Positions 1-12,171 of a stretch of 12,171 nt of DNA are shown here, one piece after another. The stretch is from the IMG/VR virus record IMGVR_UViG_3300029219_000167; one strand, 5' to 3'. Within the stretch, counting starts at the first letter, position 1. Each line of letters starts with the position of its first letter. Source of the stretch: a virus. Its lineage: Duplodnaviria; Heunggongvirae; Uroviricota; Caudoviricetes. The notes beneath the pieces are model-generated. The model worked only from the letters and a program-made list of their open reading frames with translations. It made no database searches and was not told the DNA's origin. Both the position numbers and the translations under genes were made by a program.

Positions 1-1
1 A

Positions 2-322
2 CGCTTCGCTGAATGACCGGGATGTGGCAGCCTGATCACTCAGGCAAAATACTCTCCAGGAAAACCGGAGCGGTTCATAGGTCGGTAACACACCAATTAA
101 GGTGGTACAGATCCCCATCATGGTGATGGTAATAAAGAGCACTTTTTTACGCCCTATTCTGTCGCCCATTTTGCCGAAAATAAATGCTCCGACAATACGC
201 GCCACATAACCTGCACCGTAGGTTCCCATTGCCAGAATTAACGCCATTGCCGTTGATGATTCAGGAAAAAATATTTCATGAAACACTAACGCTGCGCCGA
301 GCGAATATAACTGGAAATCCAT
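2..322 (-). pseudogene. ydfJ: MFS transporter fragment (metabolite:H+ symporter-like, ydfJ-like), N-terminally truncated and running off the window edge
   Basis: Minus-strand translation from ATG 322..320 gives MDFQLYSLGAALVFHEIFFPESSTAMALILAMGTYGAGYVARIVGAFIFGKMGDRIGRKKVLFITITMMGICTTLIGVLPTY, with an MFS motif-A-like loop (GKMGDRIGRKK) between hydrophobic segments, resembling ProP/ShiA-type TM1-TM3. An in-frame TGA lies two codons upstream of the Met (316-318 on plus), so the N-terminus is missing. After ...LPTY (about position 77) the frame stays open but is no longer transmembrane-like. Not in the ORF track because it is open to the window edge. Confidence 0.6.
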
Positions 323-924
323 AATTCACAGGTGTTTTTTCCCATCCTGTGGTTTCCTTGGCGTTTTCTAGGTTTTTTCAGATAGTTGCATTTTTTTAAA
401 AGCATCCTAAGTTCGATCTCAGTGTCTATCTGGGGCCTATTTCTGTCCCATATATGCCCCAAAAAACTCCCCAACAGATAAGTAGTTTTTTCATGGATTT
501 ACGCGTAAAATCAATAACGGCTGGAAATCATTCAATACTCGCACTATCGAAAAATTTACCAGCCAACCGCAGCACGTTCTTGCATAAGGCGTGTCTGCGG
601 TTTTTCAACTATTCAGATACATCACTCCCATCACATTCATTCCTCCGCATCAAAGGCATATAGGCTATATCACCTTGATATTTTTCTTCTTCAGATAAAA
701 ATTGTTATCTATGTATACTTTTAAACCCAATCCGTGTAGAGTCTCTGCATAAGATAGTTTGCAGTTGCCACTTCAGATTGCGCCATAAACCGCCTGATTT
801 TTGCCGCCACCTGTTAGCATTCCTGTATACCTGAAACGACAATGTTTATCTACGAACTTTAAGAACACCCAAGATAAAAATTGTCAACTATATCATATAT
901 AACACATTACTAATTCGAGGCTAT

Positions 925-1038
925 ATGAACAGCATACTGATAATCACTTCTCTCCTTATCATATTCAGCATTTTTAGTCATGCCCTAATAAAATTAGGGA
1001 TTGGCATATCCAATAACCCAGACAAAACCGATGTATAA
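925..1038 (+). CDS. Small hydrophobic protein, 37 aa (candidate small membrane protein)
   Basis: ATG 925 preceded by GAGG (917-920, 4-nt spacer, short but usable); translation [37 protein letters not shown] is one hydrophobic helix with a polar tail; stop TAA 1036-1038. Below the ORF-track size cutoff. No homology recalled with certainty. Confidence 0.35.
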
Positions 1039-1106
1039 GTCAACATATCCTGAATCAGACATACAATATCGCAATGAAAATCAATAATATTTTAAGGAAT
1101 ATCTTC

Positions 1107-1340
1107 ATGAAATCAAAAGACACCCTAAAGTGGTTCCCTGCGCAGCTTCCTGAAGTAAGAATTATCCTAGGGGATGCTGTAGTGGAAGTAGCAAAACAGG
1201 GAAGACCTATCAATACCAGAACATTGCTTGATTACATTGAAGGAAACATAAAGAAAAAATCATGGCTGGATAACAAAGAATTATTACAAACAGCGATATC
1301 AGTTCTTAAAGACAACCAAAATTTAAATGGTAAAATGTAA
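1107..1340 (+). CDS. ydfK: YdfK/YnaE-family prophage protein, 77 aa (cold-shock-induced in K-12)
   Basis: Translation MKSKDTLKWFPAQLPEVRIILGDAVVEVAKQGRPINTRTLLDYIEGNIKKKSWLDNKELLQTAISVLKDNQNLNGKM matches my recollection of K-12 YdfK/YnaE (77 aa). AAGGA (1094-1098) sits 8 nt upstream of ATG 1107. The ORF-track start at 1074 has no Shine-Dalgarno and adds 11 residues. Confidence 0.85.
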   Translation: MKSKDTLKWFPAQLPEVRIILGDAVVEVAKQGRPINTRTLLDYIEGNIKKKSWLDNKELLQTAISVLKDNQNLNGKM

Positions 1341-1656
1341 TATAACAAACTTACTTTTTTATCATTTTTCCACTTTAACAACATTTTGCTCCACTTTTCC
1401 ACGACCAAACAAATTAAAATCTGGTTAAAATAACACGCAACACTATTCTTCTTCCTTGAGTCTGCCCGGAACTCGAAAAACAAACCGAGTTAAAGCCATT
1501 TTTCACAAAATCGATTTTGGGTCTCACCAAAATTACGGGGTTGCATACGCATTCGTTTATTTTCGAACGTGTACATACAAATATGCACAAAAATAATCAA
1601 AATTATTTTCTGAGATGCATTATGATATGAACACCAATTTCGTATAGAGTCTCACT

Positions 1657-2247
1657 ATGTCTCGAATTTTTGCTTACTGTCGGATATCAACGCTGGATCA
1701 GACCACCGAAAATCAACGCCGGGAAATCGAAAGTGCAGGTTTTAAAATCAAACCTCAGCAAATAATCGAAGAACACATTAGCGGCTCAGCAGCAACCAGT
1801 GAGCGTCCTGGTTTTAACCGGTTGCTTGCTCGCCTGAAATGTGGTGATCAATTGATTGTGACAAAACTGGATCGCCTTGGTTGTAATGCAATGGATATCA
1901 GGAAAACAGTGGAACAACTGACCGAAACAGGTATCAGAGTGCATTGCTTAGCATTGGGGGGCATTGACCTGACCAGTCCAACAGGAAAAATGATGATGCA
2001 CGTAATTTCAGCAGTCGCTGAATTTGAACGAGACCTTTTACTTGAACGCACTCATTCCGGGATAGTAAGAGCCCGCGGCGCAGGGAAACGTTTTGGTCGA
2101 CCACCTGTGTTAAATGAAGAACAGAAACAGGTGGTATTCGAACGAATTAAGTCAGGTGTAAGTATAAGTGCCATTGCCCGGGAATTCAAAACCTCGCGGC
2201 AAACCATTTTAAGAGCCAAAGCAAAACTTCAGACACCTGACATATAA
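1657..2247 (+). CDS. pinQ: Serine recombinase (resolvase/invertase family, PinQ/PinR-like), 196 aa
   Basis: N-terminal catalytic motif ...YCRISTLDQ... (nucleophilic Ser), resolvase core ([23 protein letters not shown]) and C-terminal HTH ([22 protein letters not shown]). Convergent with tfa; 97-bp gap to the tfa stop. Confidence 0.92.
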
Positions 2248-2344
2248 AAAATAATCTCGGTGTGAGATGCTTTACGTCTTCCAAGCCCCCTTCCTTGCCG
2301 TAAATGGAAAGATACATCTAATTATAGAATTTATATGTTTTACC

Positions 2345-2920
2345 CTACGGCAGTGCTGGCCATTCAATATCCTGTGCAGTTGATGTATCAACACGGTTCA
2401 GCAACACCCGATACTTTTTCCAGGCTTCCAGCAATGAGGTTTCTTCCTCCGTTGCGATTTCCAGATCTACAGCATCCTGAAGTGGCGCTATATGCTCACT
2501 GGCTACCTGCATCAGGCTGTTTTTTGTTTCTTCCGCCTCCCGGATCCGGAACAGTTTTTCTGCTTCCGTATCCTTCACCCAGACTGTACCGTTCCACTTC
2601 TGAAACTCCCCTTCCGGCGATAACCAGGTAACATTTTCCGGTAACGGACCGAGTTCAGAAATAAATAACGCGTCGCCGGAAGCCACGTCATAAACCATTT
2701 TACCCCGATGATCTTCAACGAGATGCCACGATGACTCATCACTGTTGAAAACAGCCACGAAGCCAGCCGGAATATCTGGCGGTGCAATATCGGTACTGTT
2801 TGCTGGCAGACCTGTATGAGGCGGAATATATGCATCACCTTCACCAATAAATTCATTAGTTCCGGCCAGCAGATTATAAATTTTTATGGTCCGTGGTTGT
2901 TCACTCATTCTGAATGCCAT
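2345..2920 (-). CDS. tfaQ: Tail fibre assembly protein (Tfa chaperone), 191 aa
   Basis: 191-aa ORF directly downstream of stf, as in lambda stf-tfa. Its ATG (2920..2918) shares one nucleotide with the stf TAA stop (TAATG overlap), suggesting translational coupling. Sequence consistent with TfaR/TfaQ of K-12 from memory. Confidence 0.88.
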
Positions 2921-5900
2921 TATGCAAGCCTCACAATATAGTTAAATGCGATGTTTTTGACGGTGTTTTCCGCGTTACCAGCAGCGTTAACGGTGATGGT
3001 GTGTCCATGTGAACCAATCGCAACGGAGTGCGTATGAGCACCAATACCCACAGTATGTGCGTGTGCACCTGCGCTTGCAGCAGTACCCGATACAGAGTGC
3101 GTATGAGCGCCTGCAGAAGAAGTGTTAACACTGTATTTAGAATAATCAGATGCTCCACTTCCCGGAGCACCACTGGAACCACCTGAAACAAATGTCATCG
3201 AATGGGTATGTGCACCGGCTGAAGCAGCCGTACCGCTAACACTATGGGTATGCGCCCCGGTGTTATTCGTGGATTTAGTGCCGTAATCAAACGACGATGT
3301 GGTTTTCGTCCCCAAATCCGTACTGGATGCGCTGGCGCTGTGGGTATGCGATTTAATGCCGTCCTGTTCCTGAGACAATACGGCCCGACCACTGGCAGGT
3401 TTGCCCTTAATCGTCCAGCCACGCATATCAGGGATCACGCCTGACGGATAAGCGGCTGCAAGTTTCGGGTAAGCAGATTTGTCAAAAGTCTGCCCCTGCA
3501 TCAGGGCATAACCAGACGGAACGGTATCTGATGGCCACGGGATTGGTGCGCCGACTGGGTAGCTTTCTGGTGGAAGATTTTTCGAGGTATAAACTTCTGC
3601 CCAGTCTTCCTCAAAACCATAACCGTCTCTTGAAGAACGGTAGAACAGACCACCATTTCTGTAATGCGCCTTCATCTGCAAGGTCCGGCAACTTCCGACT
3701 CCGGTATAGAAGTTAACCAGAATATAGCTGTCGCCAGAGCGGGTGACATTGTAAGCACCTGATTCGGCATTCCAGGGAACGCCACCATCCGCATCGGCAT
3801 ATGTATCCGTTGCCCTTCTGGCAAAAGCAGCCACATGCGCGGCGGTTAAAGTAATATCTCTGGAACCATCAAACTCAACACCAGAAACCAGTCTTGGCGT
3901 TTGCAGCTTTGTTGCTGTTAATGCATTACCGTTCAGACTTGCGGACAGTTTGGTTCCAATAACCAGTTCGCCGGTTGCGTTATAAATAGCAAACGGTCTT
4001 AATGTATTCCAGCCACCATAAACATCACCTTGATTGGTAAGCAGCAGGTAAGTTTTAGCGCCATCATTACGCCATAATGCACCATACTCCCCACCTATCA
4101 TTCGAATCTGATTACCACCACGCGCTACAATTTCGTCTGTGGCAAAAAGTTTTTTGCACGACAAATTATCGTTAACGATTAACGAATGAGACTCATAAAA
4201 ACCACGCCCACTCTTAAAATCAAGGATAACGTCCGCCGCGATACATTCAGTCGCTGGATTTGTTGCCCCAAACTTATAGGTCGTATCATTAACAACGAGA
4301 TCAGCACCAGGTGCGGATATTGACAGGCCATCTTCGATAAACGCAAAAACAGGGAAAGCAGCGCCATCAACATAGAACACAGAGCGCAAATCATCGCCCT
4401 TATTACTCATCATTATTGAGTGGATGGCTCGTTCATTGTTTTGATATTGCCAGAACATTCCATAAGCATAACGCCCCCTGTCAGTCCAGCCACCAGGCAT
4501 AACAAATCCGTTAAACTCGCAGTTATTCATCGGATCGCCTGCGGTTCGCGTTGCCGTGGTGATAATGACCCTTGATGCCAGTTCGCTTACTGAGCCAGCA
4601 GAACGCATAACAACAACAGGGTAATATTTTCCAGATGTTGCACCTGCAGGAGCGTTAACCCGCACATAACGCATACCACGCTTATCAGCAAAGTCTGTTT
4701 TACTGACCGCGTTAATGTTGTTCAGGAAGCGTCCCTTATCGGGTATATCAGCGCCGTTCTGGTCTTTCTGCAGACGTTTCTCTGCATTGTCATAGGCTGA
4801 TTTTACTGCCTTTGGCGTTGCCGCCAGCGTTTCAGACGTACTGTTGGTCGCACTGCTGAGCTGTACTATCCCCTTTTTCGTCGTGCTCGCATCCTCAAGC
4901 GCCACGGCGGATGCAATATCCTCTGCCCGTTTTGCCGCTGTCTCGGCGCGCGTTGCCGCGGATTCCGCCGTACTTTTGCTCTGTGCTGCCGCCGTCGCAC
5001 TGCCAGCTGCCTCTGTCGCCTTCGTGGATGCTGTCGTGGCGCTGCCCTTCGCTGCTGACGCCTGTCTGGTCGCCTCATCTTTTGAAGCAGACGCCGATGA
5101 TGCCGATGACGCCGCCGAACTGGCTGACGATGCGGCAGCCGTTTTTGAGGATTCTGCGCTGGTTTCCGACGCTTTCGCGTTCGTTTCGGATGTCTTCGCT
5201 GCGGAAGCAGAACTCGCTGCTGCGCTGGCCTGTTCAGTGGCTTCGCCAGCCTTCGTTGTGGCTGTTGAAGCGGATGATGCGGCGCTTTCTGCCGATTTTC
5301 CGGCGGCGGTGGCACTGGCTGAGGCCTGCCCGGCACTTGTTGACGCGGCGCTGGCAGATGATGCAGCCGCTGTTTTTGAGCCTGCCGCAGCTGAGGCGCT
5401 CTGTCCCGCTGCCGTCTCAGAAGACTTAGCGTTCGTCTCGGACGTTTTTGCCGCCTTCGCGGAATTTCCTGCCGCCGTTGCCGAGGAAGTTGCGCTACTG
5501 GCGCTCGAGGATGCGTTCGTTTCTGATGATTTCGCTGCCTCTTTTGAGGCCGCCGCATCCCGGGCTGAGGTGGCAGCTTCTGACGCTTTCGTGGTCGCGG
5601 TGGATGCAGAAGTGGCTGCTGATTGTTGTGACGCTGCGGCATTCGTTTCTGACGTTTTCGCGGCACTGGCACTGGTAGCTGCCGCGCTTTTTGAGGACTC
5701 TGCAGCAGCAGCACTTTTCGATGCTTCACTGACCTTTGTTGATGCCGTTCCTGCGCTGGAAGACGCTGACTGAGCCGACGACGCGGCCTGTCCGGCTGAC
5801 GTGCTGGCTGCGCGTGCTGAGCCTGCAGCATCAGTCGCATGGGTTGCCGCCTCACGGGCTGATGTGCCGGCATCGCCGGCTGACTTCTTCGCGGCTGCCG

Positions 5901-6276
5901 TGTTCTGTGCCACCGCGGACGCGTTACGCGCCACCTCTTCCACCATCAGCTCAAAACGGCGCAGTGCCTCTGGCCGGGCATCATCCTCCGTCATGGCACC
6001 GAGAAAATCATTCAGCGTACCGGGTCGGGAGTCTTCATACACGGTGATGGTCCCGGCATGTGACGGCGGGAATCCTTCCACCAACAGAATAACGCTGTAC
6101 TGACCGTACTCAACGTCCATGCTGTAACGCCCGGCTTCATCCGGATTTTCTGAGGCCACCGTGTTCACCACCACCGTGGTGCTGTTACGTTTTGCTTTCA
6201 GCTGGATTGTGCAGTTCTGTACCGGTTTTCCTGTGCCGTCTTTCAGTACACCTGAAATCTTTACTGCCATATTCAC
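2920..6276 (-). CDS. stfQ: Side tail fibre protein (Stf, lambda-Stf/StfR-like), about 1116-1118 aa
   Basis: N-terminus (MN)[20 protein letters not shown]... matches lambda Stf; long Ala/Ser/Thr-rich periodic region (repeated AAKTSETNA units); C-terminal HxH repeats (GAHTHS x3, GAHAHT, SHGHT) and ...[18 protein letters not shown] end, as in lambda Stf. The ORF track uses GTG 6276; the lambda-like ATG is at 6270 (MAVKIS...). Preceded by GGGG/GTG purine-rich RBS. Confidence 0.9.
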
Positions 6277-6280
6277 CCCA

Positions 6281-6308
6281 CAAAAAAGCCCGCCTGAACC
6301 GGCGGGCT
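6281..6308 (-). terminator. Rho-independent terminator downstream of lom
   Basis: Minus strand reads AGCCCGCC-GGTTCA-GGCGGGCT followed by TTTTTTG: perfect 8-bp GC-rich stem plus T-run, 27 nt after the lom stop, immediately before the stf RBS. Confidence 0.8.
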
Positions 6309-6334
6309 GTCATAACACTGTGTTACCTGGCTAA

Positions 6335-6934
6335 TCAGAATTTATAACCGACACCCACGATGAAACCGTCAGTGCGCCAGTCACCACTGCCGGAGCCTTC
6401 ATAAGCAATATCAATGGCCACGGATTCGGTCGGGTTAAACTGCACGCCAGCCCCCCACGCCAGAGACGTGTTGCTGTGGCGACCGTCATCACTTCCGGTC
6501 AGCACATCGTGCGTTTTCCCCTTGTTGTCAGTTACGCGGAGATAATCCCCGAAGAAAGTCGACACACGGCTGTAAGCCACACCCGCCATCGCATACACGC
6601 TGAACCATTCATTCACGCGCACAGACGGCCCCGCCATTACGCTGAACCAGCGGTTACGCACGGAATCTTCATGCCAGCGGGTATCGCTGTAATGCGTTTT
6701 TTGCTCATCTTCAGCGTTGGCATAACTGAATGACGTAATCAGCCCCAGCGTGTCCGTAAACTCATAACGGTATTTCACGTTAATCCCGTTCAGATTATCG
6801 CTGCCGGGAGCGTTCGTACGGGCATTAAGATACCCTGCGCTCAGTGTGGCCTGCTGCTCAGACGCCCATGCAGGCGCACCGGATACGGCCAGACAGATGG
6901 CTGTGGACAAAATGGCTGCACAAACTTTACGCAT
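6335..6934 (-). CDS. lom: Lom-family outer membrane protein (Ail/Lom/OmpX/PagC beta-barrel), 199 aa
   Basis: Signal peptide [24 protein letters not shown], aromatic-rich beta-barrel pattern, C-terminal ...[10 protein letters not shown] ending in Phe; sits between J and stf as in lambda. GAGAGG Shine-Dalgarno 6 nt upstream of the ATG. Confidence 0.9.
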
Positions 6935-6956
6935 AATTACCTCTCGCTTTTCTGCA

Positions 6957-6982
6957 ATAAAAAAGGCGCCATTTCTGGCGCC
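6957..6982 (-). terminator. Rho-independent terminator downstream of the Nu1'-'J ORF
   Basis: Minus strand reads GGCGCC-AGAAAT-GGCGCC followed by TTTTTTATTG; located between the J-fragment stop (7002-7004) and the lom RBS. Confidence 0.8.
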
Positions 6983-7001
6983 CGTATATGGGTTATAAAA
7001 T

Positions 7002-9458
7002 TCAGCTGATACTGATGCCTGCGGTGGCTTTCTTCATCACCACAACCAGCAAATCGCTGATACTTGCTGTGGGATACCAGTCATTTACCAGCCATGCTGA
7101 CACCGAAAACTCCAGCGTCATGTGGCCGTGACCAGCTGGCATATCAATAACACCACTGTAAATCAGCGTATTATCCAGCGCGGTACGGTTATAAATTTCA
7201 GCACCATTTTTCTTCACTATCAGGCGGCATGAGGAGTAAATATCAGTATGCTCTCTCTCATGTTTAGCACCGCTGAATGCCACCGCCGGAATAACAATCT
7301 GCCGGTCAAACGGCTGATCGTCATAAATCCTGACGGTAATGGTCCCTGATGGCCACCGCTCCGGTGCCCGGGAGTCCCGCGGGAAAGCCTTACCCACTGT
7401 TTTGACAATATCGCCTTCAATCTGGTTGGCTGACAGTTTCCCTTTAATCTGACAGTTTTCATTTATCGTAACGTTGTTGAGCGTCCCGGCGTTCGCATTC
7501 ACACTGCCACTGATATCTGCATTTTTAGCGGTCAGCTTTCCGTCCGGTGTCAGGGAAAATGCAGGAGGATTACCGCCGCTGGTAATGGTGGGAGCCGTCA
7601 GATATTTCAGGAACACTTCATTCATGAATATCTGATCACCCTGACCAACAAACATCGGTTTTGTGTTGCCATTTGCAGGATTAATCATCGCAATCCTGTC
7701 TGCCGCCAGCAGCACCTGACTCTGCATGCCGTCGGGGGTGTTCTCAATACCGGCACCGATACCCGCAATATAAAGGCGTCCGTCCTGCATCTGCTGCAGC
7801 TTCACAGCCCACATGCTGTTCAGATTATTATTTGTATCAACCTGAACCTTCTGTATCTGCTGGATCGCTGCACTCTGGTCTTCCAGTTTCTTATTGACGG
7901 TCTGTGTGATTTCATTGCTGACATCCGTAATGGATGTCCTGATTTCAGCCAGGTCAGGCGCAAGCTGACCGTTATCAATCTGCGTCCACAGCTCCTGAGC
8001 CAGATGGGTTTTCCCTATCTCGCCTTTGAAAAAATCCAGATAGCCGGATGCGTCATCACTCGGCTGACCAACAGCCTCCACGAATGCCGATTTGCCAACG
8101 GTGTTCACACTGCGAACGTAAAAATAATAATTATGGCCCGGCCTGATATTGATACTGGCGGCTATCCAGTACAGCGCCGTGCCAAGATAGCGTGCTGTGG
8201 TTTCAACCTGCCTGATATCCGCAATCCGCTTTTCCGAGAACCAGAACTCAAACTGTACCGTCGGATCATAAACCGCAAGATGCGGCGTGGCGGTTATCTG
8301 AAAATAGCCCGGCGTCAGCTCAATCCGCGACGGCGCTGCCGGTGCGGCAATCCGGAACGATACCGACGCCGGATCGCCCTGCTGCCCCCACGCATTTACC
8401 GCCCGGACTGTCAGCCTGTAGTTCCCCAGAGCCAGTTGTGTGAAGCGGTAAGTGGTTTCCGTCGTCCGGGCCGTGCTGACCAGCCGCTCACTGCCGTCAT
8501 CCGCTGCCACGGTCAGGCGAAGCAGGAAGCTCACGCCCTTCACCACCTTCGGCGTGTCCCAGCGGGCCAGCACCTGGTATTCCCCGCTGTCTGCAGTGAC
8601 TTCTGCGGTCAGGTGCTGCACCGCTGGCGGCGTGACACCGTTCACCGTGCCACTCTGTTCGCCGTCAAAGTGCGCCCCGTTATCCACGATGACCTCTTTT
8701 TCCGGCACATGCTGCACGGCGGTGATGGCATACGTGCCGTCGTCGTTCTCACGGATACTCACGCAGCGGAACAGTCGCTGGCGCAGCCTCGGCAGCTTCA
8801 GCCCCCATACGCTGTATTCAGCAACACCGTCAGGAACACGGCTCACTTTCACCTTCACGCCGTCGGTGACGGACTGAACCTCCACGCTGACCGGATTGCC
8901 ACTTCCGTCAACCAGGCTTATCAGCGTGGTACCGGAGGATGGCAGCCAGGATATCAGTTCATCCAGCGCGGCTGCTTTGTTCATGGCTTTGATGATATCC
9001 CGTTTCAGGAAATCAACATGTCGGTTTTCCAGTTCCGGAAAACGCCGCTGCACCGACAGGGGGATCCCGTCGAGAATACTGGCAATTTCACCTGCGATCC
9101 GCGACAGCACGAAAGTACAGAATGCGGTTTCCACCACTTCAGCGGAGTCTCTGGCATTCTTCAGTTCCTGTGCGTCGGCCTGCGCACGCGTAAGTCGATG
9201 GCGTTCGTACTCAATAGTCCCTGGCTGGAGATCTGCCTCGCTGGCCTGCCGCAGTTCTTCAACTTCCCGGCGCAGCTTTTCGTTCTCAATTTCAGCATCC
9301 CTTTCGGCATACCATCTTATAACGGCGGCAGAGTCATAAAGCACCTCATTACCCTTGCCACCGCCTCGCAGAACGGGCATTCCCTGTTCCTGCCAGTTCT
9401 GAATGGTACGGATACTCGCACCGAAAATGTCAGCCAGCTGCTTTTTGTTGACTTCCAT
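7002..9458 (-). CDS. Chimeric deletion-fusion ORF, 818 aa: N-terminal ~169 aa of terminase small subunit Nu1 (nohQ-like) fused in frame to C-terminal ~650 aa of tail-tip protein J
   Basis: Residues 1-169 ([46 protein letters not shown]...[13 protein letters not shown]) are near-identical to lambda Nu1 as I recall it, including the winged-HTH DNA-binding domain. From about plus position 8951 the frame continues as ...[49 protein letters not shown]... matching the lambda J C-terminal half through ...[16 protein letters not shown]. Junction is in frame, so roughly 19 kb of head and tail genes (Nu1 3' end, A through I, J 5' half) are absent. Confidence 0.85.
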
Positions 9459-9480
9459 TGTTCATTCCACGGCCAAAAAC

Positions 9481-9665
9481 AGAGAAAGGAAACGACAGAG
9501 GCCCAAAAGCTCGTTTTCAGCACCTGTCGTTTCCTTTCTTTTCAGGGGGTATTTTAAATAAAAACATTAAGTTACAACGAAGAAGAACGGAAACGCCTTA
9601 AACCGGAAAATTTTCATAAATAGCGAAAACCCGCGAGGTCGCCGCCCCGTAACCTGTCGGATCGC
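9481..9665 (-). other. Lambda-type cos site: cosB (R1, R2, R3 terminase-binding repeats with AT-rich IHF-site region), cosN and cosQ
   Basis: Reverse complement of 9636-9647 is GGGCGGCGACCT, the lambda 12-nt cohesive end. R-site-like repeats at 9481-9498 (AGAGAAAGGAAACGACAG), 9524-9538 (CTGTCGTTTCCTTTC, inverted) and 9580-9598 (GAAGAAGAACGGAAACGCC). 9648-9663 reverse-complements to GATCCGACAGGTTACG, the lambda right-end (cosQ-side) sequence. Spacing to the Nu1 start matches lambda. Confidence 0.85.
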
Positions 9666-9846
9666 CGGAAAGGACCCGCAAAATGATAATAATTATCATC
9701 TGCATGTCACAACGTGCATCTACGCCATCAAACCACGTCAAATAATCAATTATGACGCAGATATCGTATTAATTGATCTGCATCAACTTAACGTAAAAAC
9801 AACTTCAGACAATACAAATCAGCGACACTGAATACGGGACAACCTC

Positions 9847-10080
9847 ATGTCAACGAAGAACAGAACCCGCAGAACAACAACCCGCAACATCCGCTTTCCT
9901 AACCAAATGATTGAACAAATTAACATCGCTCTTGAGCAAAAAGGGTCCGGGAATTTCTCAGCCTGGGTCATTGAAGCCTGCCGCCGGAGACTGTGCTCAG
10001 AAAAAAGAGTTTCTTCTGAAGCAAACAAAGAAAAGAGTGACATTACTGAATTGCTCAGAAAACAGGTCAGACCAGATTGA
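9847..10080 (+). CDS. ynfO: YnfO/YlcI-family small prophage protein, 77 aa, possible ribbon-helix-helix DNA-binding fold
   Basis: MSTKNRTRRTTTRNIRFPNQMIEQINIALEQKGSGNFSAWVIEACRRRL...: basic N-terminus, then a strand-helix-helix pattern typical of Arc/CopG-like proteins. Same position relative to cos/Nu1 as K-12 ynfO in Qin. The RHH assignment is inference. Confidence 0.7.
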   Translation: MSTKNRTRRTTTRNIRFPNQMIEQINIALEQKGSGNFSAWVIEACRRRLCSEKRVSSEANKEKSDITELLRKQVRPD

Positions 10081-10137
10081 AGCAATTTAGATAATCGTGC
10101 AGACTACGCCCCCTCATATCACATGGAAGGTTTATCT

Positions 10138-10548
10138 ATGGATCAGGTAGTCATTTTTAAACAAATATTTGATAAAGTTCGAAACGATTTAAACTATCAA
10201 TGGTTTTATTCTGAGCTAAAACGTCACAATGTCTCACATTACATTTACTATTTAGCCACAGAGAATGTTCATATTGTATTAAAAAATGATAATACAGTGT
10301 TATTAAAGGGCCTAAAAAACATTGTGTCTGTCAAATTTTCAAAGGATAGGCATCTTATAGAAACGACCTCTAATAAGCTGAAATCCAGAGAGATCACATT
10401 TCAGGAATACAGAAGAAACCTTGCTAAAGCAGGAGTTTTTCGGTGGGTTACAAATATCCACGAACAAAAAAGATATTACTATACCTTTGATAATTCATTA
10501 CTATTTACTGAAAGCATCCAGAAAACTACACAGATCTTACCACGCTAA
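10138..10548 (+). CDS. ydfO: YdfO-family protein (DUF1398-like), 136 aa from the preferred start
   Basis: ORF-track start at 10123 (MEGLSMDQ...) lacks a Shine-Dalgarno; ATG 10138 is preceded by GGAAGG (10126-10131, 6-nt spacer). Protein [40 protein letters not shown]... recalled as Qin prophage YdfO. Confidence 0.75.
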
Positions 10549-12094: not shown

Positions 12095-12171
12095 GGTAAT
12101 GACTCCAACTTATTGGTAGTGTTTTATGTTCAGATAATGCCCGATGACTTTGTCATGCAGCTCCACCGATT
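12095..12171 (-). mobile_element. insB: IS1 terminus (inverted repeat plus 3' end of insB), element continues beyond the window
   Basis: 12095-12171 matches the IS1 end GGTAATGACTCCAACTTATTG(A/G)TAGTGTTTTATGTTCAGATAATGCCCGATGACTTTGTCATGCAGCTCCACCGATT from memory. Minus-strand translation gives ...SVELHDKVIGHYLNIKHYQ* (InsB C-terminus, stop at 12110-12112). Confidence 0.85.

What the first reader, a model, noticed from the sequence alone, without database searches (positions are those of the whole stretch)
9481..9665. Apparently intact cos site retained in a prophage lacking terminase large subunit and all head genes
The 12-nt cohesive-end sequence, three R-site repeats in lambda-like arrangement and the cosQ-side sequence are all present and nearly lambda-identical by my reading. 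With only a truncated Nu1 and no gpA, the element cannot package itself. A superinfecting lambdoid phage's terminase could still recognise this cos, which would allow helper-dependent transduction of adjacent DNA.
Basis: partly seen in the sequence, partly recalled or inferred. Interest (0 to 1): 0.6.

Follow-up and report, generated by a model that had tools for sequence, protein, structure and literature searches.

The report
Intact lambda cos in Qin remnant
The window holds a complete lambda-type DNA-packaging site (cos) left in a gutted Qin-like prophage of E. coli; it is real but ordinary, since most E. coli genomes carry such sites, and alone it would let a helper phage start but not finish packaging neighbouring DNA.

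Summary
On the minus strand the window carries a full lambda-type cos: cosQ (9671-9677), cosN (9636-9647), I2, R3 (9583-9598), I1, R2 (9524-9539) and R1 (9483-9498). Every defined subsite and all spacings are identical to lambda. The 12 differences in 255 bp all lie in spacers, and 11 of them occur in phage records deposited as complete genomes. The locus is the ydfJ end of the Qin cryptic prophage. Compared with a near-complete relative (strain ABWA45), which is 100% identical across nu1-cos-ynfO, about 16 kb (A through mid-J) is deleted. Recognition by a lambda-specificity terminase is likely. Packaging would run towards nu1'-J'-lom-stf-tfa-pinQ-ydfJ and needs a second cos to terminate, so efficient transduction is not expected. 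Such cos copies occur in 4,591 of 5,426 complete E. coli genomes, so the finding is ordinary. In passing I found that the nu1 breakpoint (after codon 169) recurs in dozens of independent deletions, always keeping the cos side. That pattern is unexplained and more interesting than the cos site.

The parts
9671..9677 (-). cosQ core (GGGTCCT; lambda 48473-48479), needed for packaging termination
   Evidence: Identical to lambda in alignments. Its role is given in PMC4669245 and PMC4856287. The lambda coordinates are from my own knowledge (Wieczorek & Feiss 2001).
9634..9650 (-). cosN: 12-nt cohesive end at 9636-9647 plus the flanking CG dinucleotides at the nick sites
   Evidence: 17/17 identical to lambda and a single occurrence in the window.
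9598..9630 (-). I2 spacer (lambda bp 18-50; bp 30-35 critical)
   Evidence: Identical to lambda. I2 is defined in PMC4856287.
9583..9598 (-). R3, the critical Nu1 (TerS) binding site (lambda bp 50-65)
   Evidence: Identical to lambda, including bp 55-63 (PMC9026076). The cosN-R3 spacing is unchanged.
9540..9582 (-). I1 region (IHF site) between R3 and R2; carries C72T and A73G (window 9576, 9575) and T102C
   Evidence: A73G and T102C are shared with phage records deposited as complete genomes. C72T is shared only with prophages and IMG/VR contigs. My placement of the IHF core at bp 74-86 is an inference.
9524..9539 (+). R2, Nu1 binding site, inverted relative to R3 and R1
9483..9498 (-). R1, accessory Nu1 binding site
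8952..9458 (-). nu1' : codons 1-169 of the terminase small subunit (the DNA-binding and self-association parts are kept; the last 12 aa are lost)
   Evidence: BLAST alignment 169/174 (97%) to lambda Nu1; residues 1-169 differ only by K48R and L132I. Pfam Phage_Nu1 covers residues 1-164. 100% DNA identity to ABWA45 nohA.
8947..8951 (-). 5-nt junction filler (TCCTG on the minus strand), identical to the start of the portal-gene remnant at the nu1|portal junction of strain ML35
7002..8946 (-). J' : C-terminal ~647 aa of tail-tip protein J, in frame with nu1', giving an 818-aa ORF (7002-9458)
   Evidence: The identical protein is on at least 14 other contigs.
6335..6934 (-). lom (Ail/Lom outer-membrane protein)
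2920..6276 (-). side tail fibre gene stf (1118 aa)
2345..2920 (-). tfaQ, tail fibre assembly protein
1657..2247 (+). pinQ, serine DNA invertase
9847..10080 (+). ynfO (DUF3950), first gene on the cosQ side
10123..10548 (+). ydfO (DUF1398)
1..72 (.). end of an IS3-family element interrupting ydfJ' (contig boundary)
12095..12171 (.). end of an IS1 inserted between cspI and rzpQ (contig boundary); absent from sister contig L008

Best explanation
This is the cohesive-end site (cosQ-cosN-I2-R3-I1-R2-R1) of a lambda-type prophage at the Qin locus. A ~16-kb internal deletion removed A through the first ~511 codons of J and joined nu1 codon 169 to J. The cos site is intact because the deletion began ~700 bp to its right and happened recently, not because selection for it has been shown. 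How it would work is inferred from lambda. A co-resident or superinfecting phage of lambda packaging specificity supplies Nu1 and gpA. [quoted passage not shown] Terminase stays on the nu1-side end and translocates DNA leftwards in window coordinates (nu1'-J'-lom-stf-tfa-pinQ-ydfK-ydfJ...). The ynfO-side end is left exposed to nucleases. With no second cosQ-cosN downstream, packaging cannot terminate. The expected products are therefore a chromosomal double-strand break, one-cos ('docL'-type) heads, and break-stimulated recombination with the phage, not efficient transduction. Shown here: sequence integrity, locus identity, deletion structure and prevalence. Inferred: binding, cleavage, direction of packaging and consequences.
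For: All defined subsites and spacings are identical to lambda, judged against the published requirements: R3 bp 55-63, I2 bp 30-35, the left half of cosN, the 7-bp cosQ and the cosN-cosB spacing. Eleven of the 12 spacer differences occur in phage records deposited as complete genomes (PhiR42_1, PhiR34_1, Kati). The identical 225-bp allele lies beside intact nu1-A in other genomes (RM10042; ABWA45). Qin locus identity comes from gene order. Deletion structure and recency: window 73-8946 is 99.99% and 8952-9916 is 100% identical to ABWA45. There is precedent for packaging in trans through a shared cos and for cos-proximal recombination with DLP12.
Against: There are no functional data. C72T (window 9576), 7 bp 3' of R3 and beside the inferred IHF core, was not seen in any of the sampled phage records. 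It appears only in prophages and IMG/VR contigs. The window is probably a metagenome contig bounded by IS copies, so it is unknown whether a helper phage or a second cos exists in that genome. In-situ cutting of chromosomal cryptic cos sites is only suggested, not shown, in the papers I could read.
Confidence: 0.8

Rival explanations
1. The cos-nu1(1-169) block is kept not by chance but by a specific process. One option is a site-directed, polar deletion mechanism that starts at the nu1 3' end. The other is selection for a C-terminally truncated Nu1 plus cos, for example a dominant-negative small terminase or terminase decoy acting against lambda-like phages.
For: The window's left breakpoint (ref nt 696, after codon 169) is shared by deletions with many different right partners. 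In IMG/VR, 7 of 128 nu1 copies break at 696-702 (6 distinct partners), against about 20 other breaks spread over 719-4724. The mirror-image scan gave 0 of 145. Among the best 120 Nu1 protein clusters, 41 diverge right after residue 169, with about 27 distinct continuations, against about 5 at other nearby positions. A non-motif control site gave 0 of 136.
Against: The mechanism is unknown. There is no local hairpin and no Pin-like site. A second GATA|CCG site (ref 2267) gave only 1 junction in 123 copies, so the motif alone does not explain the spike. The best-120 protein ranking favours late breakpoints. No expression or phenotype data exist for Nu1(1-169). K-12 Qin and DLP12 break elsewhere (nt 718 and ~1017).
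Confidence: 0.2
2. The site is a dead relic that lambda-type terminase no longer uses, because the changes next to R3/I1 (C72T, A73G) or in other spacers impair IHF or Nu1 assembly.
For: C72T is absent from the sampled phage records. The changes lie between R3 and the inferred IHF core.
Against: A73G and all the other spacer changes occur in phage records deposited as complete genomes. IHF is only accessory for lambda unless R3 bp 58 is mutated. The same allele accompanies complete nu1-A and near-complete morphogenetic modules in several genomes. Natural phage records tolerate even R3 changes: G54A in PhiR42_1 and C53T in an Stx1 phage.
Confidence: 0.07
3. The element is a helper-dependent hitchhiker (satellite-like) that is excised, replicated and packaged as a unit through its cos.
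For: It has cos but no terminase large subunit or capsid genes, which superficially resembles cos-type PICIs.
Against: The window has no integrase, replication or Rpp-like gene. The cosB is the phage's own, not a PICI-specific one. The structure is a plain deletion derivative of a resident prophage. K-12 Qin is ~20 kb, which from my own knowledge of lambda's packaging limits is too short for a monomer. IS elements now break the element up.
Confidence: 0.03

Closest known systems
Bacteriophage lambda cos (cosQ-cosN-cosB)
   Same: It has the same 12-nt cohesive end, cosQ heptamer and I2. R3, R2 and R1 have the same sequences, order, orientation and spacing, and it is followed by nu1.
   Different: There are 12 spacer substitutions in 255 bp. 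It sits in a chromosome as a single copy without gpA or head genes.
Qin (Kim) cryptic prophage of E. coli K-12, nohA-cos-ynfO region
   Same: It occupies the same chromosomal locus with the same gene order: ydfJ'-ynfT-ydfK-pinQ-tfaQ-stf...nu1-cos-ynfO-ydfO-gnsB-cspI. The right part is 99.4% identical.
   Different: K-12 joins nu1/A' (nt 718) to stfQ' and has lost J and lom. The window joins nu1 nt 696 to mid-J and keeps lom and a full stf. K-12's R3 carries G54A whereas the window's R3 is lambda-identical.
DLP12 cryptic prophage nohD-cos region
   Same: It is a defective lambdoid prophage that keeps cos, nu1 and part of the late region. Its cos-proximal homology recombines with lambda.
   Different: It is at a different locus, with different neighbours (ylcI, bor/iss, rzpD) and a different breakpoint (~nt 1017).
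O157 Sakai defective prophage Sp4, packaged via Sp14 terminase
   Same: It is a defective lambdoid prophage without working terminase whose cos matches that of a co-resident phage. It was found packaged, and the authors inferred that the co-resident terminase did it (PMC2669165).
   Different: Sp4 is excised and replicated as a near-full-length genome. Nothing suggests the window's element can excise or replicate, and it has lost ~16 kb.
cos-type phage-inducible chromosomal islands (EcCICFT073)
   Same: They carry lambda-like cosQ and cosN and depend on helper TerS/TerL.
   Different: PICIs have their own cosB, an Rpp protein that redirects TerS, plus integrase and replication genes. None of these is here, and this cosB is lambda's own.
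Lambda docL (one-cos) particles from unexcised prophage
   Same: Packaging starts at a chromosomal cos and runs through the left arm into host DNA.
   Different: This item rests on my own recollection of Sternberg & Weisberg 1975 and Sternberg 1986, which I could not retrieve. Those cases used a complete, induced, replicating prophage.

Membership tests
lambda-type cos site | 12-nt 5' cohesive-end sequence with conserved CG dinucleotides flanking both nick positions | tested here: met
   ACG|GGGCGGCGACCT|CG at 9634-9650 is identical to lambda.
lambda-type cos site | 7-bp cosQ upstream of cosN | tested here: met
   GGGTCCT at 9671-9677, with the same distance to cosN. There is one spacer change (T48486C) that also occurs in deposited phage genomes.
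lambda-type cos site | cosB with R3-I1-R2-R1, R2 inverted, and lambda-specificity bases at R3 bp 56, 58 and 59 | tested here: met
   Three exact R matches in the right orientation against 0 expected. R3 is identical to lambda.
lambda-type cos site | Unchanged cosN-to-R3 spacing and intact I2 (bp 30-35) | tested here: met
   No indel or substitution in bp 1-71. The requirement is described.
lambda-type cos site | Cleavage by terminase and ability to sponsor packaging | not testable with these tools
   This needs an in vivo cos-cleavage or cosmid-transduction assay.
Qin (Kim) cryptic prophage | Located at the ydfJ locus with the order ydfK-pinQ-tfaQ-stf...nohA-ynfO-ydfO-gnsB-cspI | tested here: met
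Qin (Kim) cryptic prophage | Same deletion structure as K-12 (nohA joined to stfQ') | tested here: not met
   The junction differs (nu1 nt 696 to J), with lom and a full stf retained. This is a different allele at the same locus.
cos-type PICI / phage satellite | Own integrase, replication module, Rpp-like TerS redirector and a non-phage cosB | tested here: not met
   No such genes are in the window or in sister contigs, and the cosB is lambda's. The test is limited to the 12 kb available.

The most novel reading that the evidence does not exclude
The window's arrangement (cos plus Nu1 residues 1-169, with everything to the right removed) is one instance of a recurrent, polar, near-nucleotide-precise deletion class in lambda-like prophages. 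Its left end lies at ...CTGATA|CCGGGG, about 14 nt upstream of the A start codon. If the class reflects a dedicated mechanism or selection for a truncated small terminase with its cos, then cos-Nu1(1-169) modules would be a domesticated unit and not debris. Candidate mechanisms include terminase anchored at cosB mis-cutting at a TACC^GGGG sequence that resembles cosN. A selected unit could act, for example, as an anti-phage terminase decoy.
Probability: 0.15. Interest if true: 0.65.

Novelty: new member of a known kind. Interest (0 to 1): 0.2.

Why it matters
The finding matters little by itself. Sequence-intact lambda-type cos sites in defective prophages are the rule in E. coli (4,591 of 5,426 complete genomes, median two copies). 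Their known or suspected consequences are recombination hotspots for phage-prophage exchange and occasional packaging in trans. For this strain, a lambda-type helper could break the chromosome at 9636-9647. It could then reel in the tail-fibre/lom module and, judging from related genomes, the ydf-mar region. Without a second cos this should rarely give infectious transducing particles. The recurrent nu1 codon-169 breakpoint could matter more. It suggests that prophage decay at the packaging end is not random, and that idea can be tested.

Tried and rejected
1. I looked for the window's exact nu1::J junction in complete E. coli genomes and in GTDB species representatives and found none. It was found only by exact-protein look-up on short metagenome and Logan contigs.
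2. I tried to retrieve the primary papers on cosQ (PMC1461673) and on IHF at cos (PMC331553). They are not held. A search for docL found nothing. The lambda qin111 and Murialdo 1988 terminase-lethality papers were recalled from memory only, so I did not use them as evidence.
3. I found no paper describing the PhiR phage set. Their status as viable phages therefore rests on the GenBank records alone.
4. For the recurrent breakpoint, a local DNA hairpin is rejected (z = -0.46). A PinQ pseudo-site is rejected, because no pix-like repeat was found and the junctions are not at a fixed central dinucleotide. A long shared motif at partner sites is rejected, because only 0-4 nt of microhomology is present, often TA. 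A purely motif-driven (GATA|CCG) mechanism is not supported, because the second motif site gave only 1 junction in 123 copies. Descent from a single ancestral junction is rejected, because partners inside A (2245, 2488) cannot derive from the nu1|portal deletion.
5. I found no literature on this breakpoint.

Full report
WHAT IS AT THE COORDINATES

Read on the minus strand, window 9440-9712 aligns without any indel to lambda from about 60 bp left of the cohesive end to the start of nu1. I use the numbering of the DE3 and PV340536 lambda records, in which cosN bp 1 is the first G of GGGCGGCGACCT and the nu1 ATG is at bp 190. In this numbering lambda bp n maps to window position 9648-n.

The 17-mer that includes the flanking CG dinucleotides occurs once in the window (0.01 expected).
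- I2 (bp 18-50) is at 9598-9630.
- R3 (bp 50-65) is at 9583-9598, R2 at 9524-9539 (inverted) and R1 at 9483-9498.
- The nu1 ATG is at 9458.

The R consensus CGTTTCCKTTCT hits exactly these three places, with none in 200 shuffles. The repeat finder recovers the R1/R3 direct pair and the R2 inverted pairs.

IS IT INTACT?

The window has 12 substitutions relative to lambda in positions -60 to +195. None lies in cosQ, cosN +/-2, I2, R3, R2 or R1, and the cosN-R3 spacing is unchanged. These are the elements the literature defines as required:

- cosN plus cosB for initiation, cosQ plus cosN for termination.
- R3 bp 55-63, especially 56, 58 and 59, for Nu1 recognition.
- Exact cosN-cosB spacing.
- I2 bp 30-35.
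- The left half of cosN.

These requirements come from PMC4669245, PMC9026076 and PMC4856287. The last paper uses lambda 48446-182 as a sufficient cosmid insert.

Eleven of the 12 spacer changes also occur in phage records deposited as complete genomes with named propagation hosts (PhiR42_1, PhiR34_1, PhiR26_1, Kati). The twelfth is C72T (window 9576), 7 bp 3' of R3. It is shared with the ABWA45 prophage and with 14 IMG/VR contigs, but with none of the sampled phage records.

The identical 225-bp allele is common in complete genomes. In strain RM10042 it lies directly beside a 100%-identical, uninterrupted nu1-A stretch. I rate the site very likely competent for recognition and nicking by a lambda-specificity terminase. 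This is inference, not a test.

WHAT THE ELEMENT IS

Gene content and order place the window at the ydfJ end of the Qin (Kim) cryptic prophage locus. The order is IS3 end | ydfJ' - ynfT - ydfK - pinQ - tfaQ - stf - lom - J'::nu1' - cos - ynfO - ydfO - gnsB - ynfN - cspI | IS1 end.

Strain ABWA45 carries a near-complete lambdoid prophage at the same place: nohA, A, W, portal, C, D, [IS66], E ... J, lom, stf, tfaQ, pinQ. Window 73-8946 is 99.99% identical to it, and 8952-9916 is 100% identical.

The window is therefore a simple deletion derivative. It lacks 19.0 kb in ABWA45 coordinates, or about 16.3 kb without the IS66. The deletion runs from nu1 nt 697 to J codon ~511. The result is an in-frame 818-aa ORF made of Nu1 residues 1-169 (substitutions K48R and L132I), two junction-encoded residues, and the C-terminal ~647 aa of J.

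The claim of 'no gpA and no head genes' is therefore correct for this element. 'Truncated Nu1' means only the last 12 residues are lost.

The exact junction is absent from 5,426 complete E. coli genomes and from GTDB representatives. The identical fusion protein, however, is on at least 14 contigs from gut metagenomes and sequencing runs. All are 12.6 kb or shorter and break at the same repeats. The allele is therefore real and circulating, and the window is most likely such a contig.

[quoted passage not shown] Terminase then stays on the cosB-bearing end, docks on a prohead and translocates DNA away from cos on the nu1 side. The cosQ-bearing end is left open to nucleases.

In window coordinates, packaging would run leftwards through nu1', J', lom, stf, tfaQ, pinQ, ydfK and ydfJ'. 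By analogy with ABWA45's flank, it would continue into ydfI ... dcp ... marRAB, which lies about 13-14 kb beyond the prophage end. The window's own flank is interrupted by an IS3 element.

Termination needs a downstream cosQ-cosN. Without it the DNA is not cut, and protruding DNA blocks tail attachment (PMC6687093). The window has a single cos, and no second cos is evident in the packaging direction in related genomes.

The realistic outcomes are a chromosomal break, one-cos heads, and break-stimulated recombination with the helper. The last of these was proposed for DLP12 (PMC3945230; PMC545071). Packaging in trans of a whole defective prophage through a shared cos has been reported (Sp4 and Sp14; PMC2669165). 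That element was excised and amplified, and nothing suggests the same here.

I could not retrieve the papers.

HOW ORDINARY IT IS

The 225-bp cos stretch matches 4,591 of 5,426 complete E. coli genomes. In 3,984 of them the match covers at least 80% of the stretch. The median is two copies per genome and the maximum is eight. In 571 records the identity is at least 99%.

K-12 itself keeps cos with nohA in Qin. An intact cos in a defective lambdoid prophage is therefore the norm. I file this as a new allele of a known kind and rate it of low interest.

AN UNEXPECTED SIDE OBSERVATION

I compared deletion junctions using ABWA45 as a ruler (bp counted from cosN). The window's left breakpoint (nt 696...CTGATA|CCGGGG, after codon 169) is shared by deletions with quite different right partners:

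- portal 3467 (ML35)
- gene I (PSJ-23)
- J 19181 (AH21; left breakpoint at nt 698)
- J 19419 (F829)
- J 19732 (the window)

A further class joins nohD to a tail-fibre gene at the same nucleotide (AMA1167 and relatives).

My first examples came from a biased ranking, so I repeated the test in three other ways.

1. In IMG/VR, 7 of 128 copies of the 21-mer ending at nt 696 break at 696-702, with six different partners. About 20 other breaks are spread over 719-4724.
2. The mirror scan, using the 25-mer just to the right of the site, gave 0 junctions in 145 copies. The events are therefore polar and always keep the cos-nu1 side.
3. Among the best 120 Nu1 clusters in the 5.8-billion-protein collection, 44 are full length. 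Another 41 diverge right after residue 169, plus 5 each at residues 168 and 170. They have about 27 distinct continuations, including Lom, Tfa, gpU, gpFI, gpJ, portal, capsid, Big_2 and integrase. Only about 5 diverge at other nearby positions.

A non-motif control site gave 0 junctions in 136 copies.

Four of the six mappable partners share a TA overlap. Three of the five forward GATACCG sites in the 28.7-kb arm coincide with left breakpoints (696, 2267, 5206). The 2267 site, however, gave only 1 junction in 123 copies.

The window's 5-nt filler (TCCTG), together with the next four bases, equals the first 9 nt of ML35's portal remnant. This hints at a two-step origin: nu1|portal first, then portal|J through GCTG microhomology.

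I found no hairpin, no Pin-like site and no literature on the pattern. The cause is open. It may be a site-specific DNA end, with terminase mis-cleavage at TACC^GGGG as my speculation. It may instead be selection for Nu1 lacking its C-terminal tail. Caveats are that the protein ranking favours late breakpoints and that counts of independent events are not phylogenetically controlled.

VERDICT

- Novelty: a new member of a known kind.
- Interest is low for the cos site itself. The recurrent nu1 breakpoint deserves separate follow-up.

Noticed in passing
window 8947-8952 (nu1 codon 169/170); also L035, L036, L037, L038 and IMG/VR loci L048, L083, L100, L120, L134, L142: The left end of the window's deletion (...CTGATA|CCGGGG, nt 696 from cosN, ~14 nt upstream of the A start codon) is a recurrent, polar breakpoint. 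Dozens of independent deletions with different right partners share it. There were 7 junctions in 128 viral-contig copies against 0 in 145 in the mirror-image scan, and 41 of the best 120 Nu1 protein clusters diverge right after residue 169. The mechanism is unknown.
   Followed up: partly
window 7002-9458 (-): The deletion left an in-frame 818-aa Nu1(1-169)::J(C-terminal ~647 aa) ORF. It combines the TerS DNA-binding and self-association parts with the J Ig, tail-tip and receptor-binding domains. The identical protein is on at least 14 contigs from different samples. Whether it is expressed or has any activity is unknown.
   Followed up: partly
window 8943-8951 versus L035 (strain ML35): The 5-nt junction filler TCCTG plus the next GCTG equals the first 9 nt of the portal-gene remnant at ML35's nu1|portal junction. 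This suggests a two-step deletion (nu1|portal, then portal|J through GCTG microhomology) or a junction acquired by recombination.
   Followed up: partly
ABWA45 reference arm (rc of L007) nt 696, 2267, 5206; L035 junctions: Three of the five forward GATACCG sites in the 28.7-kb left arm coincide exactly with left breakpoints (GATA|CCG). Three of ML35's four internal joints have a 2-nt TA overlap. A direct scan of the 2267 site found only 1 junction in 123 copies, so the motif alone does not explain the nu1 spike.
   Followed up: partly
window 1-72 and 12095-12171: The window is bounded by the end of an IS3-family element inserted in ydfJ' and by an IS1 end inserted between cspI and rzpQ. Sister contig L008 has the IS3 end but lacks the IS1 and continues into rzpQ as in K-12. 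The IS1 insertion is therefore polymorphic or is an assembly path choice.
   Followed up: partly
L004 (K-12 Qin) cos, lambda bp 54; L030 (PhiR42_1): K-12's own Qin cos carries G54A inside R3. The same change is present in the deposited phage genome PhiR42_1, so this R3 position appears to tolerate variation. The window's R3 is lambda-identical.
   Followed up: partly
L003 (19SZHZ713Rt), L038 (F829), L004 (K-12), window: The Qin locus exists in many structural alleles across E. coli, from near-complete prophage (ABWA45, G3/10) to different nu1-J, nu1-stf and A'-stf deletions. Right breakpoints also recur: the same stf partner ACCGCGYTGACAGAC is joined to left ends 718 (K-12) and 879 (L121).
   Followed up: partly
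window 4844-5873, both strands, inside stf (2920-6276): Several long ORFs overlap the Ala/Ser/Thr-rich repeat region of the 1118-aa side tail fibre gene, in the antisense frames and in other sense frames. They look like compositional by-products and not genes.
   Followed up: no
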